DNA of 63,227 nt, the filler included, from Dugesia japonica (Eukaryota), in assembly GCA_001938525.1 (NCBI GenBank). It is 5 parts of 5 records of this genome, joined end to end, with 100 filler letters (N's around TTAATTAATTAA, not from the genome) between each part and the next. Parts side by side here need not be neighbours in the genome. Positions count along the whole stretch, not along the records: positions 1 to 25,758 come from MQRL01619024.1; 4 more parts are not named here. One strand, given 5' to 3'. A program made the position numbers and the translations under genes. Shown here one piece after another: positions 1 through 49,309 of the stretch (position 1 is its first letter; the number at the start of each line of letters is the position of its first letter). The notes below the pieces were generated by a model, which saw only the letters and a list, made by a program, of their open reading frames with translations, searched no databases and was not told where the DNA came from.

Positions 1-845
1 CCAATCAAAGAAAATAATTATAAAAGCTTTTATGACAACAAACGCAGTCAAATTATATGAAGCAAAAGATTCAAAGATTGAAGATTTCGAAACAAGATGT
101 AGAGAAGCATTTTCAGAGCTTGCAGATCTTGGTAAAGATCTAAATAATGACTTAAAATATTGTAGAATAAATGAATCCTCAATTTCATTTTTTTCAAAAG
201 TTCAAAAATTAGCAGTTGAATTCTGGCGTCACAAGTTAACAAAACAAACTCGTCAAATTCTTTTAACAAAATTCAATGGACGATAAAGAAGTTAAATAGG
301 AAATCAAAATGCGAGACATAGAAGATGTTGAAAAAATTAAAGAAGTTATAATTAAAATTAATGGATTGAAAAAGGAAATTGAACAAGAATATGGAATATC
401 AGCGTTGAAGAAAAAAGTTACATATGCAACAGTAGCGAGTGAAATTCTAAATTCAAATAATAGATTTAATAAACCAAGATTCAATGGAAATTTAAATAAA
501 AGTAAAAATTATGAACAGAAATATGATTCCAAGATATATCGAAGAAATACCGGAAATTTTATGAGAGGAAATTATGAGCCCAATTTTCAGACTTTCAGAG
601 TGAGAAAATGTTGGGCATTTGGAAAAGATGGTCACATCCGCTCACAATGTCCTAATGTTAAATGTTTGCATTGTAAGAATCCAGGACATCTTCGATTTCA
701 ATGCCATAAAATTAATCCTTTGAGAGCAGAAAGAAGACAAATCTACAACAAGCAACAAAGATTTCAAATGAATACCTATGATGATGATGATGATGCTTGT
801 CCCAGTGATGGAGTATAACAAGGAGATAATTCGGGAAATGCCTAA
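1..845 (+). pseudogene. gag: Ty3/Gypsy element 1 gag (5' truncated, internal stops)
   Basis: Two zinc knuckles, CWAFGKDGHIRSQC (degenerate) and CLHCKNPGHLRFQC, in ORF 309-818. The frame reads on to SGNA* at 843-845, directly upstream of pol motifs. Confidence 0.85.
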
Positions 846-874
846 GCTCTGATGAGGGAGGATCCAATTGGAGC
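833..874 (+). promoter_or_regulatory. Putative -1 ribosomal frameshift signal at the gag-pol junction
   Basis: G GGA AAT slippery heptamer (833-839) in gag phase, a 6-nt spacer, then stem GCTCTGAT/ATTGGAGC (846-853/867-874). The -1 frame is the same frame as the protease ORF at 1250. Confidence 0.6.
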
Positions 875-1189
875 TAGAAATCTAGGTCAGATAATAATGT
901 TTTGATCACTAATGTATGTGATATGACTGCTTGTGAATGTTTGTTTGATGTAAATAATAAAAATTTTAAAAAATTGAATGATTTAGTTTGATTGAATGAA
1001 TGTAAATATTTGCCGATTGATGATTTATTTAAAAAAACTATAGAATATAAAAATGATTATTTTATAGATAATATTTTAATTCCTAATTGTGCTTCAGCTT
1101 TAAATAAGGATTTAAATAATGCAAATTTAATAAATAATTATTAAGATAAGATTGTGTATAATAAAATGTCCGAAAGACCCTGATTAAAG

Positions 1190-4108
1190 TTAAAGTTAAA
1201 TAACGAATTAAATGTTAATTGTTTACTTGATACTGGCGCTAAGATTATTGTGATTGACCATGCAATATTTTTAAAATTAAATATTACTAAAATTAAAAGT
1301 GAATATATTAATGTTACTTGTGCTAATGAAAGTCAATTAAAAATAAAAGGTAGTATTATATTAAAAATTACACTTAATAATCAAACAGAATATATTAAGT
1401 TTTATGTTGCAGAAAATATTTCTCCCAGTGTTATTGCCGGAATTGGTTTTCTATCTAAATTTAATATCAAATTAAAAATGCTTAATTATATTGAATAAAA
1501 AATATGTGAAATAAAAACTTTGAACTTTAAAAATGAAATGAATAAAAATATTAGTGACATAATTGAATGATTTTCATAAATTTTTATGAAAGATAAATAT
1601 GATGTAGGTAAGACAACACTATTAAAACATGAATTTGTTACCCACGGTGGTCCAGTTGTAGTAAATACTAGGTGAAAACCTATACATTTAGAAGATAAAA
1701 TTAATAAGGCTATTTTAAAAATGGAAGAAAAGGGTATAATTAAACACTGTGATTCTGAGTGGAATAGTTCATTAGTTTGTGTTTGGAAGAAAGAGAAAAA
1801 AGACATTAAATATTGCTTGGATTTTAGATTATTGAATAATATAATGGAGAGACCATTGTTCCTAATACTAAATATAGGAGAAATGCTTGACATTTTGAAT
1901 GGATCAAAATATTTTACAACAATAAATTTGTGTAATGCATATTACCAGGTATAATTAGAGGAAAGTTCAAAATACAAAACGGCATTTTCTACAAAGTTTG
2001 GCCAATTTTGCTTCAACCAAATGCCATTTGGAATAGTTGCAGCACCAGCAACATTTCAAAAATTAATGACAAAAGTTTTAGGACCATTAAATTGAAAGGA
2101 AGCTATTGTTTATCTTGATGATATACTGATATTTTCNAAAANTGAGAAAGAGNATACAAAAAAATTGGAAAATGTTTTTAATCAAATCAAAAATTCAGGT
2201 TTGAAATTAAGTTCTGATAAATGTGTATATGTGAAAAGTGAGATTAGGTTTCTTGACCATATCATTTCAAAAGATGGTTTAAAAATAGATCCAGAAAATA
2301 TAAGAGCAATTAAAGAATTTGAACAATCTAAGTGTTTGAAAAATCTTCGTGGCTTTTTAGGGCTTACAAATTATTACAGAAAATTTATTAAATATTATTC
2401 AAAACAATTGAGGATATTAGAAAGTTTATGTGGAAACAAAAAAAATTAATTAATTTGGTCAGATCAATGAAAACAAAGTTTTGAAGCTTTTAAAATAGAA
2501 CAAATGAAGGCTCCTATACTTATTTATCCAGATTTATCCAAAGAATTTATACTGGATACAGATGCTAGCCTTGACACATTTGGTAGAGTTTTATCACAGT
2601 TAGATGAACAATGCAATGCACAGGTTATAGCTTATGGATCAAAATTAGGTTATTCTATAACCAGAAAAGAGCTTCTAGCAATAATTTATTTTACTGAACA
2701 TTATAAACACTATTTATAGGCGAAAAGATTTAAACTTCGAACTGATCACAAAGCCATAACTTTTATGATGAATACAAAAAACTGATTACTCCACAATTTT
2801 AGACATAGATCAATTATTTAAGTTTTTCAATGTTAAATAAATCGTGAGAATTCGAAAAAAGGGAAAATGAAAACAAAAGTCTTAGCAATTGAGCTTAAAA
2901 CAAATGGTAATAAATGGCAAAAAAACTCTGAAGAAATTAATAATATAATAGGTAACCTAAAAAATGGTGAAATGAATTCAAAATTTAAGTTTTCAAATTG
3001 TATCATAATGACTAAAAATAATAAAATTTAGATTCCTTTGGAATGCAAAAAATTATTTGTAAGAAATAAACACGAATCATTATGAAATATAAGTTCTCGA
3101 AAAATGGCAACTCATATAAGAGCAAATCATGATATAGAAGATCTAGAAGAAATATTAAAAGAGATTACTCAAAGTTGTAAAAAATGTCAATTAAGAAAAA
3201 CAGACAACTCAAACAAAAGAAAAACTATTACTGTTCCAGTTGATGACAAATCATTCTTATTGACTTTTGTGGTCCTTTAAAGAAAACATTATATGGAAAA
3301 CAATACATTTTAGCTATAAATGATAAAGTTAATAGATTCATATCTCTCAATGCAGTATCATATCAAGATGAAAATACCACTGTTTAAATATTAAAAAATA
3401 ATTGAATTTTCAAATACGGTGCACCGAGAATAATACATACAGATCGTGGGAAATCATTTGAATCAAATCTATTCCAACAATTAGCTAAGGAATTTAATTG
3501 TGAAATCCAATACTCTAGTCCATATCATCATAGTACAGTGCAGTCTTGTTAACCCGCGGTCACTGGGGTCCATGATCTACCCCCTTGGGTTAAGTCAAGT
3601 GGGAGTCATATTTGTCATTTAACAAATAAGAAAGAAAATGTACAAAACAAATAAAATACATTTATTATTAATACATATATGTAAAAATATAAGAAACAAT
3701 CACTTTTTTATCAACCCATCTATAATATTAAGTTGTTTTCTAGAAATGTTTTGAAATTTATTTAATTCCTGGAACATAGTTCTTGCTTGCAGGACTCGGG
3801 TCTGAATGCCCTTTTATTCATAAAAGTCCCTTAAAACTATGTATGTGTAAATTCGGGAGCCAAGGCAGAATTGCGGGTTAAGCAGAACTGTGGGTTAACG
3901 AGGCGCGGGTTAGTGGGACTGCATTGTAGTAATAGAATAATTGAAAAATAATTTCGATTTATATGAGATACAATTCATATTAGCTTACAAGATAAGAAAA
4001 AGCAGGACTGGATCAAAATTTTAGCAGAAAAAGAATTTATGCTGAACACCACAATTCAGAGTACGACGAATGTATATCCAGCTGAAATAGGTTTTAGGAA
4101 AAATTTAA
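1190..4108 (+). pseudogene. pol: Ty3/Gypsy element 1 pol (PR-RT-RNaseH-IN), decayed
   Basis: CLLDTGA (~1220), LDFRLLN, MPFG, YLDD (2111), FILDTDAS (~2546), RTDHKA, IHTDRGKSFES (~3432), YSSPYHH (~3511). Domain order is Gypsy-type; many stops and frameshifts. Confidence 0.93.
3536..3926. mobile_element. Tc1/mariner-superfamily (pogo/Tigger-like) MITE inserted in the Gypsy integrase
   Basis: Imperfect 23-bp TIRs (CAGTGCAGTCTTGTTAACCCGCG versus reverse complement CAATGCAGTCCCACTAACCCGCG). TA on both sides (3534-35, 3927-28). Subterminal GGGTTAA repeats. Removing the element restores HHSSN in frame. Confidence 0.85.
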
Positions 4109-4439
4109 TCGTCAAGGAGTGCTGGGCACGTTTCAAAAGCCCCAATTGGTATGATATACTCTTATGCATGTCATCTAGCCGGAACTACTGGGTGTCTTGA
4201 CTACTGCGTCACCATAAACGGTATTTACTTGAGTGTAATTACCGGAAGCACCTCATCACGTAAAAGCAATTCGCATTGGTAAATTGTTAGAATTAACTAG
4301 CCTGATCTCATGACAAAGTTTTCTTTGCTGGTTTGTCCTTACATACATGCGCATGATAGGATTCAGATATTGAAGTGCTCTTAAGTTAATTCAAACACGC
4401 ATAATAAATTCGAATGAAAAAAGGATTTTACATTGTTAA

Positions 4440-4960
4440 ATTTCGATAGCGGAGTATGATGTCAGGTATGAAAAGATCTCAAGTTTAGATATGACGAAAG
4501 ATTTCAAGTTAATTGCCATAGTTAATTGTTCAGATATGAAACAATTTCAAGTTTAGAAATGAAAAGAGATTTCAAGTTTAATTGTCATAGTTAGTTGTTC
4601 AGATACGAAAAAGGACTTCAAGATTAATTGTTTTAGTTAATTTCATGCATAATTGTTCGGATAGGTATAGGATTTAAAGTTTAACTGTTCTTAAAAAAAG
4701 AATTATCATATAAAAAAGGATTTAAATCTAATTGTGCTTATGAAGAAGGATTATCTCGTAGTTAATTTTACGCATAAGGATTAAGATTTAAAAAAATTCC
4801 ACGCTTAAACGTTCTGATAAAAAAGGGGGATTATCACGCATAATTATTTGAATATTAAAAGAATTCCAAGCTTAATTGTTCTTCTAGAAAGGAATTTTCA
4901 TAATTGATTCCACGCATAGTTGTTCAAAGATGAAAAGCAATTAATAAGATTCAAGGGCTT
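4440..4960. repeat. Degenerate tandem repeat array upstream of the element 2 gag (possibly inside its LTR or leader)
   Basis: Recurrent GATTTCAAGTT(T)AATTG, ATAGTTAATTGTTCAGATA and ACGCATA units. Confidence 0.7.
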
Positions 4961-5289
4961 CAACGAGAACGTCGAATTTGTACAAACCCGGGTGAGGAAT
5001 GAACGATAAAATTATCTTCAGGGTATGGCTAAAATAACATACTAACGGAAACCAAAAAAAAGGATACAAAAAGATAAATACTGAGGGTAAAATTGTATTG
5101 TTATATGAAAAAAAATCTTGTTACGGGTACAGAGCATTCATTGGAGAAAGCACATTCAAGCCGGAAATCGTTGCAACAAATAGGCTTTATCCAGGTATAA
5201 AACTTTACTAACTATCATTATAACTAATATCATTACTAACTATCAACTATAACCAGTTATTGCTCCAAAAGCCTGTCTAGAGATAGTGG

Positions 5290-8200
5290 GGTAAACCCTT
5301 CGACAGAAACCCGGAATATGTAGATGAATTCCTATGGAGCTACGAACATTACGCAAATTCCTATGGTTATAGTTAAAAACATAAAATTGACTTGGTAGCA
5401 CTGTAACTTAAAGAAAATGCTTTAAAAGTTTACCGACAACATAGTCAAGAAACTATTGAACCATTCAAATCATGGAAGGAAGTAGACCTACTTCTTAGAC
5501 ATAGTTTTAAAGAACAAAGAGACTTTCTACAAGCAAGAAAGGAACTCTCACAATGTCAACAACATGACGAGGAGTCATCTCAGAATTACGCCATACGATT
5601 TAGACAACGATTATTTAAAGTACCTTGGCCAAAGGAAACCGGCGATCAATGTGTGGGAATTTACATTAAAGGAATCAAAAGTAAAGAAATACAACAATTA
5701 GTTAAACTAAAAGAGCCCAAAACAATTACAGAAGCCATAACAATACATCGAGCGGAAGAAAAAGAGATACTAGGGCAGAATTACGTATCCATGCTTTGCC
5801 AGAAATGTCGCAATAAAGGTCATACAGCGACAGAATGCTTATCAAAGAAGAAGAAATGTGGAAAGTGCGGGCGCAAGGGACATAAAATGGAAGAGTGCCC
5901 AAACCCGGCACTCATTTGTCGCTATTGTCAAAAAATGGGTCACCAAATATTGAATTGACCCAAGAAAGGATGTCAAGGTAGTAGAAATAATATGGAAGAA
6001 GATGAAGAGGTACATTGTTGGAATGGAAATTGGCAAGTTTAAAAAATATTACCCAAGAATAATGAACCAGAAAGATTGTATATGCTACATATTGAATCAA
6101 AAAGGTCACCCATAAATCAAGAATTGAAGAAAGCAGAAAAAGCTAACATCAGGAAAGCAATGGAAGAAGGAGCAGTAAAAGAACAAAAAAACAAACTGAT
6201 ATGGTGACGATATAAACAACTGGAAGGAAGAAAACGAGAAAAAAATGAAACCTTTCAGGAGTTTGCAGCCGCAATAAAGAATTTGGCAAGATTAGCAGGC
6301 CTAGCAAATGAACAAATGATAGTAAGATGTTTCAGATCTGGATTACGAGACACATTGATAAGAAGTAATTTAGCTTCAAGCAAACCCCACAATTTGACTA
6401 CCGCTATATTAAAAGCGGAAGCAATGAGGGAAGTATTAGCAGAGCAACGACTAATTTTAGGAAAGGAAACTGCTAATCACGAAACAAGGTATAAACAATT
6501 TAACATGTAAAATAGATGTCAAAATTGCCAAGAACTCATCATAATACTAATCAATGTACTATTAAATATACGTATTGTAGCATCTGCTGTCGGAAAAATC
6601 ACCCTATAGATATAAATCTATGATCTCTACCAACTTCTTCCTTTTTCGTTATAGCAAGAATGCTATACAAGAAACATCTATTATCATAGTTCTGTACATT
6701 AACAATGGCTTTTTGTTGGCACAGATATTGTAGCAAATGCGGTAAAAAGGATCACCCGGAAGAGATATGTCTACTCAAGAGAATCAGAACAGAAGAAGAT
6801 CAAAGTTCAAGAGACGATAACGAAAGTAGCGAAACTCATAGCCAAAAAAGTGTGAACCAAAGTAAAGAATCAACTAAATTGCACATGCTAAGAATCAAAG
6901 TACATGATTGCCTAAGAATTAATGAGGTATTACCAAAGGCTCAGCGAGTACAAAAATGTTACAATTGCAACAAAGAAGGGCACCAAGCTAAAGATTGTCA
7001 AACAAAAAATAAAGTGTGTTACATCTGTGGAAAACAGGGCCATATCGCAAGATTATGTCTAGACAGAATAGACTTTGCAGGACCAAGGAATATAACAGAA
7101 GTCAGAAGAAGTTGTAATTAAGAAGAAAACCGTTTTCCAATTAAATATGTACAATGGTATCAAATACGACAAGATAAAGATGCTAAAAATACCAGGAATA
7201 AAGAGGTACTAGGAATCCTGTCCAAAGAAAACCATCAGTTACGTGAGCGAATGAAAAGTAATCATCAAAGAATCACTCGACTAAGAAAAGCCCTAGCCGA
7301 ACTAAAGCTCAATGGAGAAGAAAAGTCATCAGAGGAAATCATGCAAAATGAGAATAAAATAACTCCAGAAGATAAAACAAACACCGAATCTAACGAAGAG
7401 GAGCAAAACGAGCAAATAGCTGTAATAGTAACTTAAGATAGCGGATTTAGCCTTTCACTAATAGTACAAATAAACAACCAAACACTGAAAACCCTTTTAG
7501 ATACTGGAGCATCCCGATCAGTATTGAATATAAAAAATGGATCCCGAAACAAAAGAAAAGAAATAAAACCCTATACAACCAGAGCAACAGGGGTTAATTG
7601 GGAAACCATGCAGATCATTGGAACATTAGAGTACAATGCACAACTTCAAGAAAAAACGATAAAACACCAATTCCGTGTAATGAAAACCAATGTAGATGCA
7701 GTATTGGGAACAGATTTAATGCCAAAATTGTTAATTGGGACAAAATTGGATTTTAGTACATTCCAAATCGAATTGGAAAAACCAAAATCAGAAGTGATAA
7801 GCATGTTGCAAGTAAGTCAAGAAATTCCTAATCTATGAAAAGACCAAAACATTTGGGAAGACCAATATCAAAATTGTCTAACTAAGGAAACTATAAAAAT
7901 AAATACCAGAGGAATGAATAACGAATAAGAGGCAGAAAGAGATTGTGTAAATAAAGTCCAAGAGGTCATCAAAGTAATAAGTAAAAATAAACAACTGATT
8001 TCAACCAGAACAGCAGAACTCATCGGAGCTCTACATAGTTTTAAACCAATTATTAGTCAAGAACACCAAGTGTTATTAGAAGAGTTAGTATAACCAAGGT
8101 CAAAAGTTATTAGGTTTAAAACAATAATCATTTAAAACATATGTTTTATGGCTTTGCAATAAGAGAAAACTGATCATATCACGAGATTATCGCTGGTGTG

Positions 8201-10424
8201 ATATAGCGGAATTAATTGAAAATAACCGACAGACGAAAAAAGGGAAGAATTATATTTCGGTTCTACACTTATTGACAGCGAATCCATGGACTCAATACAA
8301 TTAGGAGTACTCTGGAAAAATGCTCGCATAGATATATTCGTCCAGAATAAAGGAAATGGAAGAAATAACCGACATCTGAACCGAAGAAAGGCCTCCGAGC
8401 ATTAACATTATTTAACGACCAGATAGCATCAAAGTGCCAAGAACCAAAATCGGCAATGAACAAAAAAACAAAGTATGAAAAGAACATTGAAGAAAAAGAA
8501 ATCTTGAATGCATCTAAAGACTAACTACAAACGGTAGCTATGCAACTACAAGAATTAAACAAAATAACTCACAAAGTAAATATAATGCCTGAAGAAGCAG
8601 AAGAAAAAACTGTGTTAGTAACAAGGTTACTAAAACTCGTAGAACAAGAACGGCGGATCTTTATCAGTATGCAAAAGTGCAAAATATGTAAAAAGAAGAG
8701 AGATATAAAAGAAAGTTGTTGGGCAGATAAAATATGCAAAATAGAACACATGTGGCAAAAAAGAACACATATGAAAGAATTGTAGCAATAAGCGGAAAAT
8801 GGTTAGAAAAGAAACAACCCAAAAGGTTGCCACAGTAATGAGGAACAAGAAAATATAGTGACCGACTCGATTAAACTCTGCATGCTACAGGTGGAAACTG
8901 TAGATATAATAGAACCTGATGACTTCACAGAAGTAGTATAAAAAAAGAAAAGAGAAAGGAAAAAAATTAGAGAAATGAAAACCAGAAGCCAGTTATCAGA
9001 AGTAGGCACTCTAAATATACAGAAAGCCGAAAAAAATCAAACATGTAACCAAGAACAAGTAAACTATATAACAAGGTCGAACTTAAATCAAGAGTCGAAA
9101 TTATCATCAAACAACGATCTTACCGATCAGATGGAAGAACTGTTATGGGTATTAACGTTACAACAAAAGGAGTTGGAAGAGGTAACCAATGCAGTACGGA
9201 AAGTATCGGTAGAAGCAATAGTAGAAAATGTCTTAAAATCAAGGCTATCGAATTTCAGAGAACAAGAAAAACAGACGAAATTCGCAATGTAATTGTTGTT
9301 AAAAACCTGGAATGAAACGGAAGAAAATATAATGAAACCCATGATACCAGAACAAAAAAACTATACGTGTAGTGAATGTGGTAAACGTGGTCATCTGGCA
9401 ACCTGGTGTTGGAAAAATAGATTATGTAAATATTGTGGGGAATCAGATCACCCAAAGAAACTATGTTGGAAAAAACCATGCAAATTATGTAGCAAATTAG
9501 AACATACAGAGAAACAATGTAAAAAAGAATCGGATATCGAACCTATCTTTAGAGAGAAAGGTTGCACGAGATGTGAAAAAAAGAGACCACACGATAGCTT
9601 CATGTGGGATAAAACCAAAAAATGTGGGTGCAAAGAACATACTGAAATAGTATGCCAACCGGAAAAGCAATGTACTAAGTGGAAGAGGACATCTAGCAGA
9701 ACAATTTGGTATTCCTAGATGTTTCAACTGTGGTAGAGCCGGACACATCATGAGAAGGTGCCGATTTAAAGCAAGTAATGAAGACTTAGCTATAATAATA
9801 GAAAGATCAAACAAGTTTTGTATGTTACAAGTAACCAAGGAAGAGGAATTAACGCAAACACCTGACATTTTGAATGGAAACCAATTAATGACACATGTAG
9901 AACAAGATAATTATCAGACAGTACCAGAAGACTGGCAGAAAATGCTTAATGCATACGATGGCCGGATATCCAGATTAGAGGAAGCCTTACGGTTGAGTGA
10001 AATGAAATTCCAAAATTTCAAGTTTTTAGCAGATAAAGGAATGGGAGAAAAAAGAGATGCGATAATATTAAGGGATACAGAGATGGCCCACCTACAAAGA
10101 AGAATATCATTCAACCAAAACCATAAATCCCTAGTAGAAAAGGCTTTACGTTCAAGCCAAATACAATGTCAAAACTTTAAACTATTGTCTGAGAAGACCA
10201 TGGAAGAACAGAGGGCAACCAATGGAAAATTGTTAGAAATAATTGAGGAAAGAAAACCATTCTACAAATTTTTAACGGATCAACAAAAGAACTGGAAAAC
10301 AGGAACAAACAAAAATTTAAACATGAGCAAAATCGATCAGCCTCAAACTCCAAAACCAAATGATAACGAAACCTGGAACAAAACAGCACCAACAAAGCCC
10401 ATTGCAATAATTAGCCTCATCTGA
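5290..10424 (+). pseudogene. gag: Gypsy-like element 2: expanded Gag-protease polyprotein with many zinc knuckles
   Basis: Gag N-terminus KPFD..DEFLWSYEHYA. A second capsid C-terminal-like block at 6205-6510. CX2CX4HX4C clusters at 5797-5958, 6517-7060, 8677-8830 and 9367-9761. Protease LLDTGAS at ~7494. Strongly A-rich; broken by stops and frameshifts. Confidence 0.85.
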
Positions 10425-10489
10425 CAAAACCAATCATTCAATGGACAATCAGACCACTCGATAATCTATTCAGGAGAAAGTAACGATCA

Positions 10490-12745
10490 TATAAGTAAGT
10501 GTATAATATTATCAACAGTAGATATAGACCAAGCGTATTATAAAGTCGAACTAGAAGAGAAGCTTAAAATTAAAACCGCTTTTTTACAAAGAAAGGCCAG
10601 TATTGCTATGATCGCATGCCATTCGGCCTATCAACCAATCTAGCTACGTTTCAAAAATTAATGCAAACAATTTTGTCAAATATTCTATTTAAAGGCGTTG
10701 TAGTTTTTATTGATGATGCTCTAATCTTTGCGAAAGTTGGAAGGAACATGATCGCATTCTATCAAAAGTATTTCAAAGAATTCAAACATCTGGTCTTAAA
10801 GTAAATCCAGCCACATGTAAACTGTATCAATAGAAACTAGTGTTTTTGGGTGATACAACAAATAAATTTGGATAAAAACCAAATTTGGAGAAAGTCAAGA
10901 AGATTGTTAATGCTGGAATTCCAAAATTTACTAAAGAATTGCGATGTTTTCTTGGAATGGCAAATTATTACAGGAAATTTATAAAGAATTTTTCACAACT
11001 TGCTACATCTGTATATGCTGCTCCAGAATGTCAAAAGCACGAGATAATGTAGACAAAAGAATGCGAGATGAGTTTCAGGAAAATCAAGGAAGCTCTTTGT
11101 AATTCTCAAGTATTTGGGTATCCTAATTCAGAAAGTCAATTTATTCTGGATACTTATGCCAGTTCTTCGGGACTTGGTGCTGTATTGAGCCAATCACAAA
11201 ATGGTATAGAAGTCGTTATAGCATATAGATCAAGGTTGTTGATATTGTGTGACCAGGAAGGAGTTATTGGCTCTTTATGAATTTATTCGACATTTTCTAC
11301 ATTATCTTTATGAGAAAAGTTTTGTCGCAAGAACAGATCACAAAGCTTTAGAGTTTATAAAGAATTCAGAAAACCGATTACGCCACAGTTTCAGACTTAG
11401 ATGAACGAATTATCAGAATATAATTTCGTATTGAAGTATAGAAAAGGGGAACATCATTACATAGCTGATGGTATTTCAAGATTGCCAATGTCAGACTGAA
11501 CATGAAAATGCCAAGTCTAAATCGTCTATGGTAAAATATTTAAATGTTATGAACGTTTTCAGAAGTAATTTGCACAATTACATAAAGAAATTTAAAGAAG
11601 ACGAATTATTTAAGGAAATCAAAATTTAATTGATGGACAAATATGTTAAATTATCAGAAACGTTTAAAACTTCCCAGTATTTTAAATATTTGGATAGGTT
11701 TTTAATTGAAGACGATATTCTGTTAATTGAGTCAGATGATGAGCAAAAGATAGTGGTTCCAAAAAGATGCTTAACTGATTTTATGAACAAATTTCGTAGA
11801 GATTTATGCCATGTAGGAATAAAGAAAACAACAAAATATATATCTGATTATTTCTTCTGGCCGAATATAATTAAGGATGTTTGGAATGCTATCAAAGTGC
11901 TATCATTTTTGTATGTACAGAAAGGTTAGTAGTGAGAAAGTTAAGGAAACATTTATATCAAGATACGCAGCTAACCCGATGGAACCAATCGCGATAGATG
12001 TTGCGTATATGGATAACATTAAATCCAAAAAAAAATACATTATAGTAATAATTGATCAGTTCAATAAGTTAGTTAGTCTTATTGCAACCACAAATCAAAA
12101 CGAAAACACGATCAAAAGTGCATTGTTAAACAACTGTATTTACAAATATAGATAACCTAAAACGTATTGTTTCTGAGCGAGGAAAAGTATTTGAAGGAAA
12201 TGTTTAACAATAATTGGCTTCAAGATTTCATATTTTGTGGATATTTATATCTCCCAATGAGCATAAGTCAAATGGTTTAGAAGAGCGCGCAATTAGAACT
12301 GTCAGAGATATGATAGTAACATCCTTGAAATCTGGAGGAGAGGAGAAGTGTTGGAATGAAATCCATCCAAAAGTTGAGATTTCATTTAATTGCACGATAT
12401 CAAAGGTGGTAGGATTTTCTCCGATGGAAGTTATCTATGGAAGGAAAATTAATATTCATTTAACGAAAGAATTCAAGAGTAACCGTAAAGAAGTTCTGTA
12501 AAAAGCCGAAAGTAACATAAACGAAGCTTCAAAAATAGAGATGAATCAAGAAGGAAACCGAGTTGAAAGGGAATTTAAAGTTGGATATAAAGTTCTGGTA
12601 AAGAGAGATCGGACAAAACGAAAGAAAAATGATTATATATATGATGGACCTTACAAAATTATGGAATTCCTATCACTTCATCAAGTAAGATTGCAGAATT
12701 CAGAAGTTTCGAAATACAGACGTATAGAATAACTGAAAAGGTGTT
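10490..12745 (+). pseudogene. pol: Ty3/Gypsy pol (RT lacking its N-terminus, RNaseH, integrase with GPY motif)
   Basis: STVDIDQAYY, MPFGL, FIDD, FILDTYASSSGLGAVLSQ, RTDHKAL, CHVGIKKT..FFWP, IAIDVAY, SNGLEERAIRTVRD, YDGPYKI. Confidence 0.92.
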
Positions 12746-12753
12746 AACAATCT

Positions 12754-13019
12754 GGAAGAGACGGAGGGGTTGGAAATAAATGTGACCTTGAAGTTTTGTT
12801 TGTATATTAAAATGTAAATAATAAAGATATTTTCAAAATTTAAGATGTCTGTTATTACTGATTTAACTTGTAAGATGGGATATCGATAGACAATTCCCTA
12901 AGTTTGTCGTAAATTCGTAATGATGCGAATGAGTAGATAATTAGGCTTTTAGTTCATTATTCTGAATAATTTTTTGATTGAAATTTCTTTTTCTTTTGAA
13001 TTCTACTGAAAATCGCAAC
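12754..13019 (+). repeat. Polypurine tract and probable 3' LTR
   Basis: GGAAGAGACGGAGGGG immediately after the integrase end, followed by a TTGG...GCAAC segment. LTR limits are approximate. Confidence 0.5.
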
Positions 13020-17074: not shown

Positions 17075-17335
17075 TAATTTAATCGACCTTTGTCTATCAT
17101 CTGTATCTTCAAAACCAATTGCTGCAAGATAAATGTTTTTNNNNNNNNNCGTTGTAATTCAAAACAGTTTCGATCATGGCTTTTTGAATTTATGTTTCAT
17201 TACCTCCTTCAATCTTGTTATTGTTGAATGAAAGGACAACATCTTTAAACAGAGTATGAAACCCGTAGTTGCTCGGTACTACATCAGACTTACTGGATCA
17301 TGGATTTATAGAGCATGGATTTACTTAATCAGCGT
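17075..17335 (-). pseudogene. Polinton major capsid protein fragment
   Basis: Translates DVVPSNYGFHTLFKDVVLSFNNNKIEGGNET..KAMIETVLNYN; close inverted match to 18668-18756. Confidence 0.8.
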
Positions 17336-17900: not shown

Positions 17901-18757
17901 GGTAAAATTGTTAATTAATAATTATTTCCTCATACAATGTATTTACTAGTTACCACTACCTGTATAAACAATAAAGAAATCAATATACGAAGTGCAAGTC
18001 GAGAATTAATCAACTTTGCTAAAGACTCAAAACTCATTTAACTTTACATTTTCGAAAAGTAAATGTCTAATCCCGATATTATTAAACTTTATATTACTAA
18101 TCAAGCTGGGGGAGAATTACCATAGTTTGTAGAAATACAGTTTGAATCTGGATAGTTGCAAACAATTATTCGATTTGCTTTGCCTATTCTTAGACAATTG
18201 AAGCTATTTGGAATGAAAACAGCAAACGATATAATAATTAATAAAGCAAATATTTTGCATTGTTTCAAAACAAATCCTATGACTGAATTCAAGGATTTTA
18301 TGTCTTCTCCAGAAGTTACAAAAATAATGCCAAAGGACAACACTACAAAATAATCTAAACTCAAAGGTGCTGGAATAAAGCTTAAGCCTTCAATTATAAA
18401 CAAACAAATGAATGGCTATGAAACTATATTTGAGAATGCTTTGCGGAAAAACTAAACTATGTATTTTTTATTGTCTAACTCTTCAAGGTGTTATTGAACA
18501 TGGATTATTTGAAGATGTGTTTCCAATGAATTCAATTTCTGAAAGTAGAAATGTNGTAGAGTTCTTTATAAATTGATCGCAAACTGATTATCTGGGTTTC
18601 AATGATACATTGTTGTATGTATAAGTAAGAGTGTTTGATAGATCTGTAAAAGACTTGAGTGAAAGATCTGATGAAGTACCGAGCAATAACGTGTTTCATA
18701 CATGTTTAAAGGTGTTGTCTTTTCATTCAACAATAACAAGATCGAAGGAGGTAATCT
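17901..18757 (+). mobile_element. Polinton copy 1 fragment: penton C-terminus, core protein, MCP N-terminus
   Basis: CINNKEINIR..INF..LTLHFRK; MSNPDII..NQAGGELP..LQTIIRFALP; GKTKLCIF..IEHGLFEDVFPMNSIS..NDTLLYV. Same gene order as copies 2 and 3. Confidence 0.8.
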
Positions 18758-18959: not shown

Positions 18960-20170
18960 TTACACTAATATTGTTCCGTTTTCTTTAATCTGAATTTCTA
19001 TTTCAAATACTCCATAAATTATAACATATGCCTATGTTATTAAAGCTTTGGCAAACTTGATTTTCAATCTCAAATTTCCTTGTTGAGGTAATTGTCTTTG
19101 ATTTATATCGAAATCTGGAGCAACAAAAAATGTAAAGAAGAAATAATTATCTTTAAAATCTTGAAATGTTATTCCACAATTCTTATTCTTATCAAAATAT
19201 CCCATATTTTGTACTATAGATTGCATACATGTTGTGGCATATTTATTGTTTGCAAAATCTTAAGTATATATTTATCGATAATCACTGTTTTTCGCCAAGG
19301 AAATAGAAACTGCATCTATATTTTGAAATGCTGAACTCAAACTTTAATAGCTACCATTATATTGTTCACCACTTTGAAATGTAACCAAAATAAAGCTAGG
19401 TTATCGACTATCACCAAAGATTTGTTCCTTATAAAACGATAAACTATCTTTACTAATTGCAAAGGTAACAACTTCTTTGTTTCTTATTGGGTAAACAGAA
19501 TTTTTCTTTTATAGACCTAATTGATGTACAACTACTACTGATGGTTTAATGCGTTCACGTTTAATTATTAATTTTGCATCTAGTAATACATATCTTGGTT
19601 CATTAGCTGTAGATTCCAAACGAATCTTAGCAGGTGATTGTTTCAATCGAATATGAACATTGACACCAGGAATAAAGTATTTTGATTGATCCATGAAATT
19701 GAGTTGTAATGAACCGCATAGAGTTAATTGTTTTGATATTTTAATAGACTTTTTTTTATCTGCTTCTGATCCATTTCCTATTGCTGCAAGACAGATTTTT
19801 TTACTATCACAATTATAATTTATTATAGTTTCAATTATTGCTTTGTGAAGATAAGATCCATTTCCACCTTCAATATTGAAATTATTTAACGAAAGAATTA
19901 AATCCTTGAAAAGAGTATGCAGCATATAATTACTAGGAACTGCATTATGAGTGTCAGTGAAATCTTTACCAGCCTTATCAAATACCTTTACTTTAATATA
20001 CAATAATTCAAATCCAAATATTCTATTTGATATCCATTTATAAAAAACTCTACATCACTTTGTTATTCAGAAATTGAATTCATAGGAAAGGCATCTTCGA
20101 AAGTACCACTTTCAATTGCAGCTTGTGGAGATGGTCGATCAAAAATACATAATTCAGTTTTACTGCAAAT
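18960..20170 (-). pseudogene. Polinton major capsid protein (double jelly-roll, hexon-like)
   Basis: PSNYMLHTLFKD, KAIIETIINY, FMDQSKYFIPGVNVHIRL, FFVAPDFD..GNLRLKIKFAKAL. Confidence 0.85.
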
Positions 20171-20204
20171 CNNNNNNNNNNNNNNNNNNNNNGGCCTCTC
20201 ATTC

Positions 20205-20649
20205 GTTTGTTTATACGTGATCCATGAGAATTGTTACGTTTTCTACTATTTTGTAGTGTTTTGACTAGGTTTGATTGCACATTAGTTATTTCAAATGGTA
20301 TTTTATTAGTTATACTTTGCGGTAATATGTTTGCTATTTTTGGAATCATACTGGTTACTTTGCAAGGTAACGATAACATAACATTTCCAAGCTCAGCTAA
20401 TGCATTAGAGTTTAATGTTGGTAGTATTTTTCCATCATTAGCTAAGACATCTTGAGCTGTTTTCATACCAAAAGAACAAATAAGTTTAAAAATCGGTAAA
20501 GCAAATCTACCTATTGTTCTCAACAAAACGGATCCATACTATTTTCCAAGAAAGTAAGGTATACTTTCTTGGAAAATAGTATGGATCCGGTTGGATTCTC
20601 CCTTTGCTTGACTAGTATTATAAATTGAAAAAATATCAGGATTTATCAT
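20205..20649 (-). pseudogene. Polinton putative core/membrane-active protein between penton and MCP
   Basis: YFLGK.YGS..LRTIGRFALPIF followed by a basic tail (RINKRMRG). Homologs lie at 18063-18420 and 33745-34098. Function is inferred. Confidence 0.6.
20529..20589. repeat. Perfect 28-bp inverted repeat with a 5-nt loop
   Basis: CGGATCCATACTATTTTCCAAGAAAGTA-aggta-TACTTTCTTGGAAAATAGTATGGATCCG. Confidence 0.95.
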
Positions 20650-20654
20650 TTAGT

Positions 20655-21630
20655 TTTCTAAAATGAAAAGTTAAATAGGTTTTTGAATCTTATGGAAACT
20701 TGATTAATTTTCTGTTATCATCACGTATATTAATTTTTACATGGTTTATACATGATGTTGCAATAGGTAAATACATTGGATTATCAACCATTTTTTGTAC
20801 TTCTTTATCAGTTTCATGCTTTTCTATCCATACTGATTTCAAAAAAGGCACACTAACATCTCCTACAATTATAGGTTCAACAAGATTACTATAGACGAAC
20901 ATTTGCTGTTGTAACTTAATGATTTTTTGATTTCTATCACTTTGTATTACACTATTTTTCATATCTGCAAGGGAATAATGTTCTTTTTTTAAGCCCAATG
21001 TTTTTGACAAGACTTGATCAAATGTAAATGTTTAGATATCATCTATCAGTGAGAATTGAAATAGATTATTTGCTCAGAGAGAGATAATATTAAATAGTTC
21101 AGATCCGCTTTTTTGAAATTTTGACTTAGTTGCTTTATTTCTGTTATGTATAATTTATCCTTTAACAGTCATTATAAGTTTTACATTTTCTATTGAAAAA
21201 TCATCTTTAAATGATGTATATATAATAGAAAGCCATTTTTATCCCTGTCGTTAGATTTATATCGGAATCCAAATTTATTTGCTATTCTCTCATGTTCAAA
21301 AGTGAGTATATATTGATATTGATAACGAAGAGTTAAATGACCTCTGAAAGATATAAAAGCAATCTCATTATGCTTGGCAGTCACGTATTTTGCCATTGTG
21401 ATTAAGTGTAATAGTTATTTAATTTCTATATTTTTAGATTTCATGTATTGAATTTTAGAATTGCTATATAAAGGAACTATTTGATATACAAAGGTAAAAT
21501 CTAACAATGCTACTTCCCAACTACAATCCATATAAATTGGATTTTGAAGCTCAACAATGAATTTACTAGCATTATTTTCCGGATGAATAAGTGGACAGCT
21601 ATTAATTGGTAAAAGTGTATATTAATTACT
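20655..21630 (-). pseudogene. Polinton minor capsid protein (penton)
   Basis: TLLPINSCP..HPENNASKF..WEVALLDF at the N-terminus; MFVYSNLVEPIIVGD..P.L and INIRDDNRKLIKFP at the C-terminus. Confidence 0.8.
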
Positions 21631-21649
21631 CGATTTTATCTGAATTTTC

Positions 21650-22560
21650 TTCTTGATTGACTACGTGTGATGCTAATATTCAACTTGGTTTTTCGTATCC
21701 ATCCCACTTTACATAGTATTGTTTATTCTTTCCTGATCCTTTTGATTTGATTATTGTTTCTATTCTATATATCTATGATGATGGAATGACTTGTAATTCT
21801 TACTCATAGAACTTTCCTTGTACGGTATATTTTACATAATTTTTAAAAAAATACATGACCGGATTTAATTTTGTGTTAATTTTATGTATTTGAAACCCTT
21901 CATCACTCCAATTAATATTGAAATTCTTGATAAATAGTGAAGCTGATATTTACGAGATTCTCACATGATCGCCAACTTTATACTTTGGTTTTTATTTGCT
22001 TTTGAATGTTTACGTGATAACCATAACTTAAATTGATTGTTTGTGCTTATATCAACTGGTCTTGCTCCATTTAATTCCTTATGACCAGAATAATTATAAC
22101 TATGAATACGTTTCGGTAAAACATTTATCCAAGTCTTATTACCTACATGTACAACATACTTTTTCAATGCATCTCTCAATGTGTGATTAACTCTATCTAC
22201 ATTTGCAGCTTTATACTGAGAGAATACAATATAATGGTTTGTGGATAGATAATTAAAATGTTGTTTCACCTCGGAATTGTAAAATTCCTTACCCAAATCC
22301 GTTTGTAAATTATCTGGATGTCCATTTTAAAACATTGACTTGATTGTAGGTTCCATATCATTAGCAGATTTTGATTTAACAGGAACATCTCTTGGAAAAG
22401 TACTGAATACATCAAAATATGTCAAAATAAACTTGTAACCTTTTTTAATTTTTGAATATGGAATCATCTCCATTAGATTTATTTGCCATAAATCATCAAT
22501 ACCATATGTTTTATATGCTATTGTTGGAAATCGTTTCAACATCGGCTTGTTCAGGTTTTT
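21650..22560 (-). pseudogene. Polinton retroviral-type (RVE) integrase with C-terminal chromodomain-like region
   Basis: IDDLWQINL, YKFILTYFDVFS, LQTDLGKEFYN, KAANVDRVNHTL, VKWDGY. Confidence 0.88.
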
Positions 22561-26839: not shown

Positions 26840-27985
26840 CCTTTACACTGTCTGGATTGAATCTATGTCGTCTTTATTAGAAGGTGGTAATTGACTATGA
26901 CCGTATGGTAAACGTTTATGTAGCAAAATGTAAAACCACATCCTTATTAAGTTGAACAGCAATCAGATCATTATCCATTTTAAATGTTTTCCTAAAACTC
27001 GGTTTGGAAGTAAAGGTCACCAACGTTTTATCAGAGTTACAGAGACGGAGATTCATTCTCTTCTTCAGATTTTCAACAGTCTTACCGTAAAGACTATTAT
27101 TGAGTAGTTTATAATAATTTTTATCTAACTCACATTTACTTTCAGATCTAAATGCAGTGTGTCCATGTACATAATCCTTAAACATATAATTTTGGTTAAA
27201 TTTTACAGCCCTATGAGTTTTAGTCATTTCAACCCCAAATTGTAAATACAATTGAAGTAATCTTCAATGTGTTACATCATTTTTCTTTGAGTGATATGTA
27301 AGTAGTAATTTTTTAAATTTTTACTTGGTACTAATTGCAGCAACTTAAATAGTTATGTAAATCGTTACGAATCAACTTCAACACTATAACCATAGTACAA
27401 CAAATCTAAGTCTAAAAACCTACAATCAACAAGAATTTTTTTCAAGTCAGAATGAATCCACTCAAAGTTCTTATAAGGAAGTATTTGGCTTAAAGCCAAA
27501 CCATATAGATTATTGATATCTATGTAAAGTAACTCAGTATTTTCATTAGTCTCCACATAATGTTTATTTTCAAAAGTAAGACCTCCTCTAATACCACCTT
27601 CAAAGAAAGTGTACATCTCATTGTCAGCCAAATGTTTAATGGGTTCATCTAGAGTCATTAAGGCAGAAGCCCAACTCATTTCAGGAATTCTAAAGAAATT
27701 AAGTGGTTCTAACTTATCAGGATCTAGCCTGAAATTGCTGAAAGAAATCAGCCAAAAGAAAAACATCAAGTTTCCAATAGGCCATCATATAGTCTAAAAG
27801 ATTCTTACAACTAGAAAATTCCTATATCTCAAAAGCTTTCAAATCATTTTACTCAGTAACTCCTTCCCTAATAGGTGGCATTACTTGAGTTTCCTCTAAA
27901 ACATCTAAACTAGTTGCAAAGTTATAAGGAAAAATCCAATTAGTCTTTGTTAGGTAAGTCTTCAATTGTTAATTGGTTATTCAAN
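26840..27985 (-). pseudogene. Protein-primed family B DNA polymerase (Polinton), internally deleted
   Basis: GIRGGL, LLYIDINNLYG (motif A), YYKLLNNSLYGKTVEN (motif B), C-terminal LPYGH. YxDTDS not seen. Confidence 0.92.
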
Positions 27986-32509: not shown

Positions 32510-33720
32510 GTTTAAACCAAAGTGAATTGTTCAAAACAATATTTGTCTCTTGGCAGTAATATGAATCTCGTTTTCAAACACCCGGAAATTATTACATGTG
32601 CTGTTGCCACTAAGGGAGAATCGAATTATATATCAAGCTTGAGATTTTCCTGTATTGTTAATTGACTCTGATTTATTTCAAAGTCTGTAGCTTAATTTTT
32701 TTTCTGGTACTGTGGTCTTAAAATCTTTCAGTGTTATTCCATAATCCATATTCTTGTTTTGATATCTCATATTTCTAACCATCGATTGCATGTATGATGT
32801 ACTATAATCATTATTTTTAAAATCTTGAGAGTAAGACTCTCTATAATCCCCATTCTTAGATAATGTAATAGATTTACCATTGAAATTATCGAATAGTGAG
32901 CTTCGTATTTGATAACTTCCTTTATATCGTTCTCCATCTTGAAATGCAACGATAATAAAAGTTGGTAATCTACGATCTTCAAAGATTTGCTCCTTATAAA
33001 ATGATTAACTGTCTTTACTAATTGCATACGATACGATTTCCTTGGTTTTTATAGGATAAATAACATTTTGTTTGGTTAATTCAATTTTATGAGCTATTAG
33101 TACTGACAAATTCACTCGAACTCTTTTTATTATTAATTTTGCATTCAATAATTTATATTTTGGTTCATAAAGTTTGTATTCTAAATACATTCTTACATCC
33201 GATCTTTTCAATTGAATGTGAGCATTAACACCTGGAATGAGATATTTCGATTGATCCACGAAGTGCAGCTGCAGAGGACTACATAGAGACCATGCGTTTG
33301 ATGTTTGTTTAAATTCATCATTTCTATATCCCATTGCGTTAAGAGAAGCATCCTTTGGATCTCTATTATAATTCAAATCAGTCTCAATGAATGCTTTAGG
33401 TACATAAGTTTCATTTCCATCTTCAACTTTAATATTATTTAATTGAAGAATTGCATTCTTGAATAGACTATGCAACATGAAATTCACAGGCATAACATCG
33501 AATTTTGGTTCCAAATCCGTACCATTCTTATCTACTATCTTCACTTGAACATACAAAAGAGTATCATTCAAATCCAAAAAATCAGTTTGCAATCCATTTA
33601 TAATCCATCATTTGTACTTTCAGAAACATTATTAATTGGAAACAAATCTTCCAATACTCCATACTCAATAACGTCTTGAGGTGCTGGACGATCAAAAATG
33701 CATAATTCTGTTTTTCCACA
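32510..33720 (-). pseudogene. Polinton major capsid protein
   Basis: GKTELCIFDRPAPQDVIEYG, DLNDTLLYVQVKIVD, PVNFMLHSLF, FVDQSKYLIPGV. Confidence 0.88.
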
Positions 33721-35429: not shown

Positions 35430-36636
35430 GCTAATTGAGATACAGATCTCCAAGTAGGTTTTTCGTAGCCATGCCATTTTACATATAATTGTTTATATTT
35501 ACCAGTTCCTTTTGACTTTATAAAGAAAAATAATTATTATTTAATAATTTCATCGAATAGAAATTGAGTTATCTGAATATTAATATTAAAATTCTTGTAN
35601 TTCAATATTATTTATATTATGAAAAATGTGTTGTAGTAGTAAAATAAATGATGTCTCAAAATATTAATTATTATTTGCAAAATAAATTACCAATTGAAGA
35701 ATTACCTGACAGACTTTATAATCTTTTATATTCTAAATACTGATGGTTGTTCTATAACTTGTTATTTTTNTTTCATAGAATTTTCCAACAATAATATTTT
35801 CTTCGTGATCTTTAATCACATACATGACTGGGTTCTGCTTGGTATTGTTTTTAGATATTTGAAATACTTAATCACTCCAATTTTTATGGAAATTCTTGAT
35901 GAAGCTGATATCTTTGAGATTCTTACATGGTCACCAACTTCATATTTGGGTTTCATAATTGCCTTTGGTTTTTGTTTCAATAACCATAATTTCATTGAAT
36001 TGTCAGATTCAACAATTCTTGCTCCATTTAATCTTTTATGACTTGTGTGATTATAACTGTCAATTAGTTTCGGTAATACATAAATCCATGTCTTATTACC
36101 AGTGCGTACAAAGTACTTTTTTAATGCATCTCTCAATGTTCGATTAAATCTTTCAACATATGCTGCTTTATATTGTGAAAATACTGATAATGGTTAATTT
36201 CTAGGTGATTAATAATATTCTTAACTTTTGAATTATAAAGTTTTTTCCTAAATCAATTTGTAAGTTATCCGAATGACCATTGTTAAATATTATCTTGATT
36301 GCAGCTTCCATTTCGATAGATAATTTTGATTTTATATGTACAGCTCTTGCAAATTTACTAAATACNNNNNNNNNNNNNNNNNNNNNNNNNNNNNNNNNAT
36401 TAATTCTTGAATATGGAATCATTTCCATCAAATCCATTTGCCATAAATCATCAATCCTATATGTTTTATACGATCTTGTTGGTAATCTTTTCAACATTGG
36501 CTTGTTCAGACTGTACACTAACTGGTTCGATAACCACTGTTTTATCTCGCTTTTTTGAACTTTTTGTTGCTTTCCATAGCTTTTCCACTCCTTTGAAACC
36601 TGCTGGATGTTTTGGGTCTGTCCATATTGTTTTCAT
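35430..36636 (-). pseudogene. Polinton RVE integrase (interrupted at about 35520-35815)
   Basis: WTDPKHPAGFKGVEKL, YSLNKP, IDDLWQMDL, LQIDLGK, KAAYVERFNRTL, YEVGDHVRISK, YVKWHGY. Confidence 0.9.
35525..35740 (+). mobile_element. Gypsy LTR end plus gag start nested in the Polinton integrase
   Basis: TTCAATATTATTTATATTATGAAAA..TGTGTTGTAGTAGTAAAATAAATG then MSQNINYYLQNKLPIEEL; same family as 17575-17865. Confidence 0.6.
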
Positions 36637-49218: not shown

Positions 49219-49309
49219 GTAATTATAACTTAAAATTAAATTGCATTATATTTTTCATAAATTAAAATAAGATTAGTTCTTTTCGTACAAAGAATTTCAT
49301 ATTTCTTAT

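What the first reader, a model, noticed from the sequence alone, without database searches (positions are those of the whole stretch)
5785..9835. Recurrent hydrophobic-x-Met-Leu/Gln motif at module boundaries, a candidate repeated protease cleavage site
Seen (Met codon position in brackets): VSMLC (5791, capsid/knuckle border), QFNM* (6505, second capsid/knuckle border), KLHMLRI (6885), VISMLQV (7803, protease C-terminus), TVAMQL (8540), KLCMLQV (8882), KFAM*LL (9287), KFCMLQV (9822). The two stops could be CAA>TAA. The motif persists although flanking sequence is unrelated. Inference: it is the recognition site of the element's own aspartic protease, cutting the polyprotein into 8 or more products. 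It also argues that pre- and post-protease parts are one element.
Basis: partly seen in the sequence, partly recalled or inferred. Interest (0 to 1): 0.7.

Follow-up and report, generated by a model that had tools for sequence, protein, structure and literature searches.

The report
Likely protease cut sites in retrotransposon
A broken jumping gene encodes an unusually long protein built from duplicated parts, and a short repeated motif near the joints of those parts is probably where its own protease cut it, a known mechanism in an unusual layout.

Summary
All 8 Met motifs are at the stated positions, in three frames of one decayed Ty3/gypsy-type element; two more were missed (6082, 8669). 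The core hydrophobic-x-M-L-x-[ILV] occurs 5 times against 0.17 expected and ranks first of 1284 patterns, but corrected for pattern choice p is only 0.02-0.03; a pattern-free test was negative. 8 of 10 sites lie within 45 codons of a zinc-knuckle array edge (background 31%). With Met as P1', six sites have hydrophobic P2 and P2', as published for Ty1 and ASPRV1 proteases. No family copies were found, so conservation and cleavage are untested. Verdict: probably the element's own protease sites (about 0.6), spread by internal duplication. The mechanism is known; the expanded Gag-protease layout, with five knuckle arrays on both sides of the protease, is the unusual part.

The parts
5305..5754 (+). 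Ty3/gypsy-type capsid domain (two stops in its first part)
   Evidence: Pfam Retrotrans_gag E 3.6e-11, Ty3_capsid E 8.1e-7; dArc2 capsid E 5e-4
5785..5799 (+). Loose-class site VSMLC, capsid/knuckle border, Met 2 codons before first Cys; candidate CA/NC cut
5797..5955 (+). Knuckle array 1 (2 complete CCHC, 1 incomplete)
6073..6093 (+).
6208..6480 (+). Second, weak capsid-C-terminal-like domain
   Evidence: Pfam Retrotrans_gag E 0.04 only; no PDB match below E 0.36; not significant against capsid 1, 167 of 1000 shuffles
6499..6510 (+). Loose-class site FNM followed by a stop, 4 codons before array 2
6517..6770 (+). Knuckle array 2, broken by frame changes (1 complete CCHC, at least 1 incomplete)
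6876..6896 (+). Tight-class site KLHMLRI between arrays 2 and 3
6957..7058 (+). Knuckle array 3 (2 complete CCHC)
7416..7427 (+). IAVI: probable protease N-terminal cut site, without Met
   Evidence: residue 1 of mature retroviral proteases aligns to model residues 6-7; hydrophobic-x-x-hydrophobic words near this column in other proteases, by eye
7437..7784 (+). Retropepsin-type aspartic protease, open frame, catalytic D-T-G at 7500
   Evidence: Pfam E 5e-7; Ddi1 E 1e-5; model pLDDT 75; Z 13.3, rmsd 2.6-2.7, 102-107 aligned to EIAV protease and DDI1
7794..7814 (+). Tight-class site VISMLQV, 7 residues beyond the aligned protease fold; candidate C-terminal cut
8444..8671 (+). Helical-looking module A, paralog of 9071-9289; contains TVAMQL (8540), which the paralog does not keep
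8663..8674 (+).
8678..8770 (+). Degenerate knuckle array 4, similar to array 5
   Evidence: 0 of 1000 shuffles
8873..8893 (+). Tight-class site KLCMLQV, 37 codons after array 4
9071..9289 (+). Helical-looking module B, paralog of 8444-8671
   Evidence: no Pfam or PDB match
9278..9292 (+). Site KFAM followed by a stop, 27 codons before array 5
9368..9762 (+). Knuckle array 5 (4 complete CCHC, frame change near 9715)
9813..9833 (+). Tight-class site KFCMLQV, 20 codons after array 5
9834..10400 (+). Unassigned module with an internal 29-residue repeat (9969-10055 and 10128-10214)
   Evidence: 0 of 1000 shuffles; no homolog
10401..10412 (+). IAII: possible pre-RT cut site, without Met
   Evidence: inference from position
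10490..12735 (+). RT (N-terminal part missing), RNase H, integrase; same element or a neighbour, unresolved
   Evidence: Pfam RT_RNaseH_2, Integrase_H2C2, rve; translations; silent-site composition differs from upstream part, p 1e-5

Best explanation
The region is the Gag-protease part of a decayed Ty3/gypsy LTR retrotransposon whose polyprotein grew by internal duplication of units made of a helical or capsid-like domain, a zinc-knuckle array and a polar linker. The motif is most likely a preferred substrate of the element's own retropepsin, read as P2 hydrophobic, P1 small or polar, cut, P1' Met, P2' Leu (sometimes Gln); the tight class adds K/R at P3, I/V at P4' and often Ser at P5. Each duplication copied a cut site with its unit, and selection for processing kept the sites while the flanks drifted. 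The protease would free the capsid, itself and several knuckle (RNA-binding) and helical proteins of roughly 70-290 residues. Met is preferred, not required: IAVI and IAII at the protease N-terminus and before RT would be cut as well. Shown: motif, positions, domains, paralogy. Inferred: cleavage, register, products.
For: Enrichment survives correction for pattern choice, p 0.02-0.03. 8 of 10 sites within 45 codons of a knuckle-array edge, background 31%, binomial p 0.002; other Met 7 of 25. 7803 lies just outside the protease fold: aligned range ends at model residue 128, Met is 135, pLDDT under 50. 5791 is at the CA/NC border, where Ty3 Gag3 is cut (PMC6525542) and PEG10 is thought to be cut (PMC7212762). 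Protein-level constraint: 17 of 24 identical residue pairs use different codons. Ser at -5 in 4 of 5 tight sites, a column not used to pick them, p 0.02-0.10 by the number of columns counted. Published rule: P2 and P2' hydrophobic in Ty1 (PMC6952103) and ASPRV1 (PMC11402058); beta-branched P2 with Gln/Glu P2' in HIV type 2 sites (PMC3185560). A distant protease-search hit, P0004, has [IV]GML before three of its tandem protease domains and INMI after the last (0.05 expected for [IV]GML).
Against: No cleavage data and no family copies. The pattern-free cluster test was negative. Sites are not independent, being partly paralogous. In the one pair put in register without the motif (8669/9287) only the Met and a hydrophobic P2 are shared, no clear excess over the 26% identity of the module. 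Three expected cut sites lack the Met motif. The position test depends on the cut-off: not significant at 15 codons (3 of 10, p 0.09), and for the tight five only at 45. The strict pattern also occurs twice off-frame within the element, and KLKML occurs inside the neighbouring element's protease (1478). Retroviral proteases have no consensus site (PMC3185560). Only 3 of 23 protease domains among the hits have such a Met word upstream, two of them in P0004, and the P0004 motif is not among its top 8 patterns in the same scan. Low pLDDT at 7803 may reflect thin alignment or the monomer model.
Confidence: 0.6

Rival explanations
1. Leftover of duplication plus chance. One or two real border sites were copied with their modules; the other matches are chance hits of a loose pattern, and most copies are no longer cut.
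For: Demonstrated paralogy; corrected p only 0.02-0.03; negative pattern-free test; the loose pattern gives 1.8 hits by chance; 8540 not kept in its paralog.
Against: Among the tight five, non-Met motif columns are 40% identical and flanks 7% (partly circular); the pairs 8882/9822 and 7803/any show no flank similarity once the motif is removed; Ser at -5.
Confidence: 0.2
2. The motif is a short binding or structural strand, not a scissile site: for example a beta-strand that docks on a partner, and at 7803 the last strand of the protease dimer sheet.
For: Alternating hydrophobic residues suit a strand (inference); P0021 has a strict-pattern match 102 residues after its catalytic Asp, versus 101 here, which a structural strand would explain as well as a cut site; related P0002 lacks it.
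Against: Structural alignments to Ddi1 and retroviral proteases end before the motif; position beside knuckle arrays matches known CA/NC processing.
Confidence: 0.1
3. The Met codons are internal translation starts, or mark splice junctions, so that modules are made as separate proteins.
For: The invariant residue is Met; the only GTAAGT in 5290-10424 (+ strand) lies at 7812, inside the 7803 motif; Cer1 makes an extra protein by splicing (PMC10309623).
Against: Residues upstream of Met are kept as amino acids with changed codons; only 1 of 5 tight sites has a purine at -3 (the purine preference is recalled, not from a call); the other nine sites have no GTAAGT.
Confidence: 0.05
4. Pure chance in an AT-rich, decayed sequence.
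For: negative; pattern and frame segments chosen after seeing the data.
Against: Searches point the same way by partly independent routes.
Confidence: 0.05

Closest known systems
Ty1 and Ty3 protease processing sites (yeast LTR retrotransposons)
   Same: Own aspartic protease cuts at domain borders, including CA/NC in Ty3 (PMC6525542); Ty1 P2 and P2' hydrophobic, mainly Val/Ile, P3 and P3' hydrophilic (PMC6952103).
   Different: Ty1 has three known sites without a fixed P1'; here up to nine Met sites plus two non-Met ones, predicted only.
ASPRV1 and PEG10 (retrotransposon-derived proteases)
   Same: ASPRV1 prefers hydrophobic P2 and P2' (PMC11402058); PEG10 self-cleaves, estimated between capsid and zinc finger (PMC7212762).
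   Different: Domesticated host genes with few sites; ASPRV1 is described as preferring non-hydrophobic P4', whereas the tight class here has I/V at P4'.
HIV-1 type 2 cleavage sites
   Same: Beta-branched P2 with Gln at P2' (PMC3185560) fits VAMQ and ISMQ.
   Different: Type 2 sites have hydrophobic P1; P1 here is mostly small or polar; retroviral proteases show no consensus.
Burro/GYPSM1 giant gypsy elements of planarians
   Same: Gypsy polyprotein enlarged with extra in-frame domains, including zinc-finger (AIR1) and Smc-like hits (PMC6431247).
   Different: Burro carries MATH, BIR, BCL2, ankyrin, env and dUTPase-like domains in about 5000 residues; none was found here; growth here is by self-duplication of Gag-like units on both sides of the protease.
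P0004 (unnamed 2296-residue protein)
   Same: Knuckles plus tandemly repeated modules whose borders carry hydrophobic-x-M-[LI].
   Different: Its repeated unit is the protease itself and it has a fusion-glycoprotein domain; 23% identity only; not a family copy.

Membership tests
Ty3/gypsy LTR retrotransposon (Metaviridae) | Ty3/Arc-type capsid followed by CCHC knuckles | tested here: met
Ty3/gypsy LTR retrotransposon (Metaviridae) | Retropepsin with D-[ST]-G | tested here: met
Ty3/gypsy LTR retrotransposon (Metaviridae) | PR-RT-RH-IN order within one element | tested here: inconclusive
   Order is right, but RT lacks its N-terminal part and silent-site A/(A+T) is 0.56 against 0.74-0.82 upstream, p 1e-5; the neighbouring element shows a similar gag/RT gap, 0.71 vs 0.54, p 0.09
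Ty3/gypsy LTR retrotransposon (Metaviridae) | Paired LTRs, primer site, target-site duplication | tested here: inconclusive
   No paired terminal repeats in self-blastn or repeat search; primer site and duplication not tested
Ty3/gypsy LTR retrotransposon (Metaviridae) | RT phylogeny places it in a named clade | not tested
   No reference RT set fetched; integrase search empty
LTR-retroelement protease cleavage sites | Hydrophobic P2 and P2' | tested here: met
   With Met as P1': P2 hydrophobic in 10 of 10 (by definition of the pattern), P2' Leu in 6, Gln in 2, unreadable in 2. The general rule is not selective: 31 of 1633 positions fit
LTR-retroelement protease cleavage sites | Located between folded domains | tested here: met
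   8 of 10 near knuckle-array edges, 7803 just past the protease fold; 8540 fails
LTR-retroelement protease cleavage sites | The same Met motif at every border known to be cut (PR N-terminus, RT N-terminus, RH/IN) | tested here: not met
   IAVI, IAII and LNVM instead; these fit the looser P2/P2' rule
LTR-retroelement protease cleavage sites | More conserved than flanks among family copies | not testable with these tools
   No copies found; only internal paralogs, with mixed result
LTR-retroelement protease cleavage sites | Cleaved by the cognate protease | not testable with these tools
   Needs an assay
Burro/GYPSM1 | MATH, BIR, BCL2, ankyrin, env or dUTPase-like domains in the polyprotein | tested here: not met
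   None in Pfam scans of three + frames of 4900-12899 at E 0.05; decay lowers sensitivity
Burro/GYPSM1 | Internal region up to 25 kb, ORF near 5000 residues | tested here: not met
   Capsid to integrase end spans about 7.4 kb against PMC6431247

The most novel reading that the evidence does not exclude
An undescribed gypsy lineage has turned Gag-Pol into a modular polyprotein of ten or more products, with five nucleocapsid-like arrays and duplicated helical proteins on both sides of the protease, held together by a protease with a real consensus (S-x-K-[LF]-x, cut, M-L-x-[IV]), tighter than reported for retroviral proteases. Two site classes would set the order of cutting, and a ready-made cut site would let any duplicated module become a new free protein. 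P0004 hints that other elements expand the same way with a similar Met site.
Probability: 0.3. Interest if true: 0.6.

Novelty: new variant of a known kind. Interest (0 to 1): 0.38.

Why it matters
Few retrotransposon proteases have mapped sites. If right, this element offers about ten natural substrates of one enzyme, a direct way to test its specificity, and shows how a polyprotein can gain new proteins by duplicating a module together with its cut site. The motif also gives domain borders for modules that match no database. It is one decayed copy, and self-processing at such borders is textbook, so the value lies in the architecture and the testable substrate set, not in a new mechanism.

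Tried and rejected
Family copies: three word-index protein searches found nothing (6690-7835, longer proteins of 670-2000 residues; 9651-10421, 141-450 residues; integrase end, 315-2000 residues). The full HMMER scan with 7380-8366 gave 21 hits, all but the repetitive P0001 confined to or starting in the protease, 23-36% identity; P0001 was dropped as a repeat artefact. Bacterial/archaeal genome contigs: none. No second copy in the window. Viral and metagenome contig collections stayed unchecked, as did the Atlas and the source names of the hits. Single-sequence fold of the protease region was useless, pLDDT 33; the 16-sequence fold worked. PDB sequence searches of three unassigned modules gave nothing below E 0.1. 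Pattern-free cluster test negative at three settings, 8 to 32 of 200 shuffles reaching the best real score. The codon test had one wrong-frame segment for the neighbouring element; one search replaces it. Protein-complex prediction was not used. TVAMQL (8540) rejected as a probable site. Literature: searches returned 0 papers; searches listed no title or abstract describing this architecture or motif; the library lacks most subscription papers and Repbase, so absence is weak. Of seven papers I saw only term-matched passages, no full text and no supplements (the Ty1 paper's S4 figure on sites was not seen).
Full report
Setting. The window is AT-rich (GC 19-35% in 2-kb blocks), gapped, has no tRNA or tmRNA gene and is full of decayed mobile elements: type B polymerase and integrase fragments and a reverse transcriptase elsewhere, and a second gypsy-type element at about 1-4190. 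A eukaryotic host is inferred; it was not identified. The finding lies in an element with a Ty3/Arc-type capsid, nine complete CCHC knuckles in five arrays, a retropepsin and, from about 10490, RT, RNase H and integrase.

Observation. They are spread over three frames; I used four frame segments (5290-6540, 6690-8366, 8459-9718, 9714-10424; 1633 codons, 24 stops), chosen by eye, and the frame between about 8090 and 8460 is uncertain. The loose pattern finds 10 sites, adding 6082 and 8669. They fall into a tight class, hydrophobic-x-M-L-x-[IV] (6082, 6885, 7803, 8882, 9822; four with K/R at -3), and a loose class (5791, 6505, 8540, 8669, 9287).

Is it more than chance? With the pattern fixed afterwards, yes: 10 vs 1.8 and 5 vs 0.08, 0 of 20,000 shuffles each. 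To correct for that choice I enumerated all patterns of the form class-gap-dipeptide-gap-class with knuckles masked. The motif ranks first of 1284 (5 seen, 0.17 expected), and the best pattern of a shuffle is as good in 21 of 629 and 15 of 729 runs. A pattern-free BLOSUM62 cluster test did not pick it out (score 84, shuffle mean 84); that score is not corrected for the Lys/Glu-rich composition, but it is a negative. One column not used in selection, -5, is Ser in 4 of 5 tight sites (p 0.02 to 0.10 by the columns counted). The statistical case is real but moderate.

Position. 8 of 10 sites lie within 45 codons of a knuckle-array edge (31% of positions do; p 0.002; other Met 7 of 25); the result holds at 30 and 60 codons (p 0.011, 0.002) but not at 15 (p 0.09). 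Three loose sites sit 2-4 codons before the first Cys; tight sites follow arrays 1, 2, 4 and 5 by 20-42 codons. Array 3 has no downstream site in the frame I used. In a 16-sequence model of the protease (pLDDT 75) the fold aligned to solved proteases spans residues 6-128; Met 7803 is residue 135, in a low-confidence tail, and residue 1 of mature retroviral proteases aligns to residues 6-7, the IAVI word. So the protease is bounded by a non-Met word in front and a Met word behind. The pre-RT (IAII) and RH/IN (LNVM) borders also lack the Met motif.

Flanks are not unrelated. 8444-8671 and 9071-9289 are paralogs (26% identity; 0 of 1000 shuffles), and their upstream flanks alone place Met 8669 and Met 9287 in exact register. 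Arrays 4 and 5, and 3 and 5, align too; 9969-10055 repeats at 10128-10214. The polyprotein therefore grew by internal duplication, and the ten sites are fewer than ten independent events. The same alignment puts TVAMQL (8540) against VLTLQQ, so 8540 is probably not a site. In that independently registered pair only Met and a hydrophobic P2 are shared, which does not show excess conservation. In contrast, 8882 and 9822 share 6 of 7 motif residues while their flanks without the motif show no significant similarity.

Protein or nucleic-acid signal? Among the five tight sites, 17 of 24 identical non-Met residue pairs use different codons, and the base at -3 is a purine in 1 of 5. This favours a peptide signal read through the Met over start codons. 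One perfect GTAAGT lies in the 7803 motif, the only one in 5290-10424 on the + strand; it does not recur at the other sites.

One element? Pre-protease, protease and post-protease parts share A-rich fourfold sites (A/(A+T) 0.74, 0.82, 0.75; pre vs post p 0.12), related knuckle arrays and, across 7803, one frame. The RT-RH-IN part differs (0.56, p 1e-5) and starts in mid-RT; but the neighbouring element shows a similar gag/RT gap (0.71 vs 0.54, p 0.09), so this does not prove a chimera. No paired LTRs were found.

Outside evidence. No family copy was found. Among 21 distant hits, P0004 has four protease-like domains; [IV]GML precedes three of them and INMI follows the last. That is an independent case of a hydrophobic-x-M-[LI] word at duplicated borders, though its copies are also paralogous, it is not among the top 8 patterns of that protein, and only 3 of 23 protease domains in the hits have such a word upstream. 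P0021 has a strict match 102 residues after its catalytic Asp (101 here), P0002 does not.

What is known (term-matched passages only). Ty1 sites have hydrophobic P2 and P2' and hydrophilic P1, P1', P3, P3' (PMC6952103). ASPRV1 prefers hydrophobic P2 and P2' (PMC11402058). Retroviral proteases have no consensus; HIV type 2 sites have beta-branched P2 and Gln/Glu P2' (PMC3185560). Ty3 Gag3 is cut into CA and NC, and Ty3/gypsy is classed as Metaviridae (PMC6525542). PEG10 self-cleaves, estimated between capsid and zinc finger (PMC7212762). Burro elements have giant multidomain polyproteins (PMC6431247); Cer1 makes an extra protein by splicing (PMC10309623). Reading Met as P1' makes the motif an ordinary member of the P2/P2' rule, with an unusually fixed P1'. 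Nine searches listed nothing that describes this architecture; the library is incomplete.

Mechanism and verdict. Most likely (0.6) these are sites of the element's own protease, copied along with duplicated modules and kept by the need to release capsid, protease and several knuckle and helical proteins; successive candidate sites are about 70-290 codons apart. Shown: motif, positions, domains, paralogy, synonymous variation. Inferred: cutting, register, products, order. Rivals: duplication leftovers plus chance (0.2), structural or binding strand (0.1), internal starts or splicing (0.05), chance (0.05). New variant of a known kind; interest 0.38.

Noticed in passing
window 7171-7191 (+), Met 7180: A strict-pattern match (KIKMLKI) about 40 codons after knuckle array 3, where the pattern predicts a site, but in a different frame from the one that runs into the protease. 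Chance or local decay; undecided.
   Followed up: no
window 1-4190 (+): A second, simpler gypsy-type element (gag, protease, RT, RH, IN); RT/RH 68-69% identical in DNA to 10533-11405. Its protease has T-rich silent sites, unlike the protease at 7437 (0.27 vs 0.82, p 3e-4).
   Followed up: partly
window about 3530-3930: Small insertion with imperfect terminal inverted repeats interrupting that element's integrase, MITE-like.
   Followed up: partly
window 4462-4612: 68-base tandem repeat, 2.2 copies, in the non-coding stretch before the capsid; possibly LTR or leader sequence.
   Followed up: no
window about 10425-10500: RT begins in mid-domain; roughly 90-110 N-terminal residues are absent compared by eye with the neighbouring element's RT. 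Deletion or junction of two elements.
   Followed up: partly
window 12740-12770: Purine-rich run after the integrase, like a polypurine tract; no matching 5' LTR found.
   Followed up: no
window 19509-22326, 26916-27784, 32678-33607, 35816-36632, 39545-39904, 55745-56257: Fragments with type B DNA polymerase and integrase matches, suggesting several decayed Polinton-like elements; the capsid-like reading of 19509 and 33005 is recalled, Pfam gave no match.
   Followed up: partly
window 57678-60073 (-): Fragments with an RVT_1 match, E 1e-7; probably a non-LTR retrotransposon.
   Followed up: partly
window 48639-49265 (+): Cysteine-rich 208-codon open frame without a Pfam match; perhaps part of a host gene.
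   Followed up: partly
window 17199-17288 and 18667-18755: Long inverted repeats, 89-94% complementary, about 1.4 kb apart; likely ends of a DNA transposon.
   Followed up: no
P0004: 2296-residue protein with knuckles, a Monjiviricetes-type fusion glycoprotein domain (E 1.7e-87) and four tandem protease-like domains; an odd architecture in its own right.
   Followed up: partly
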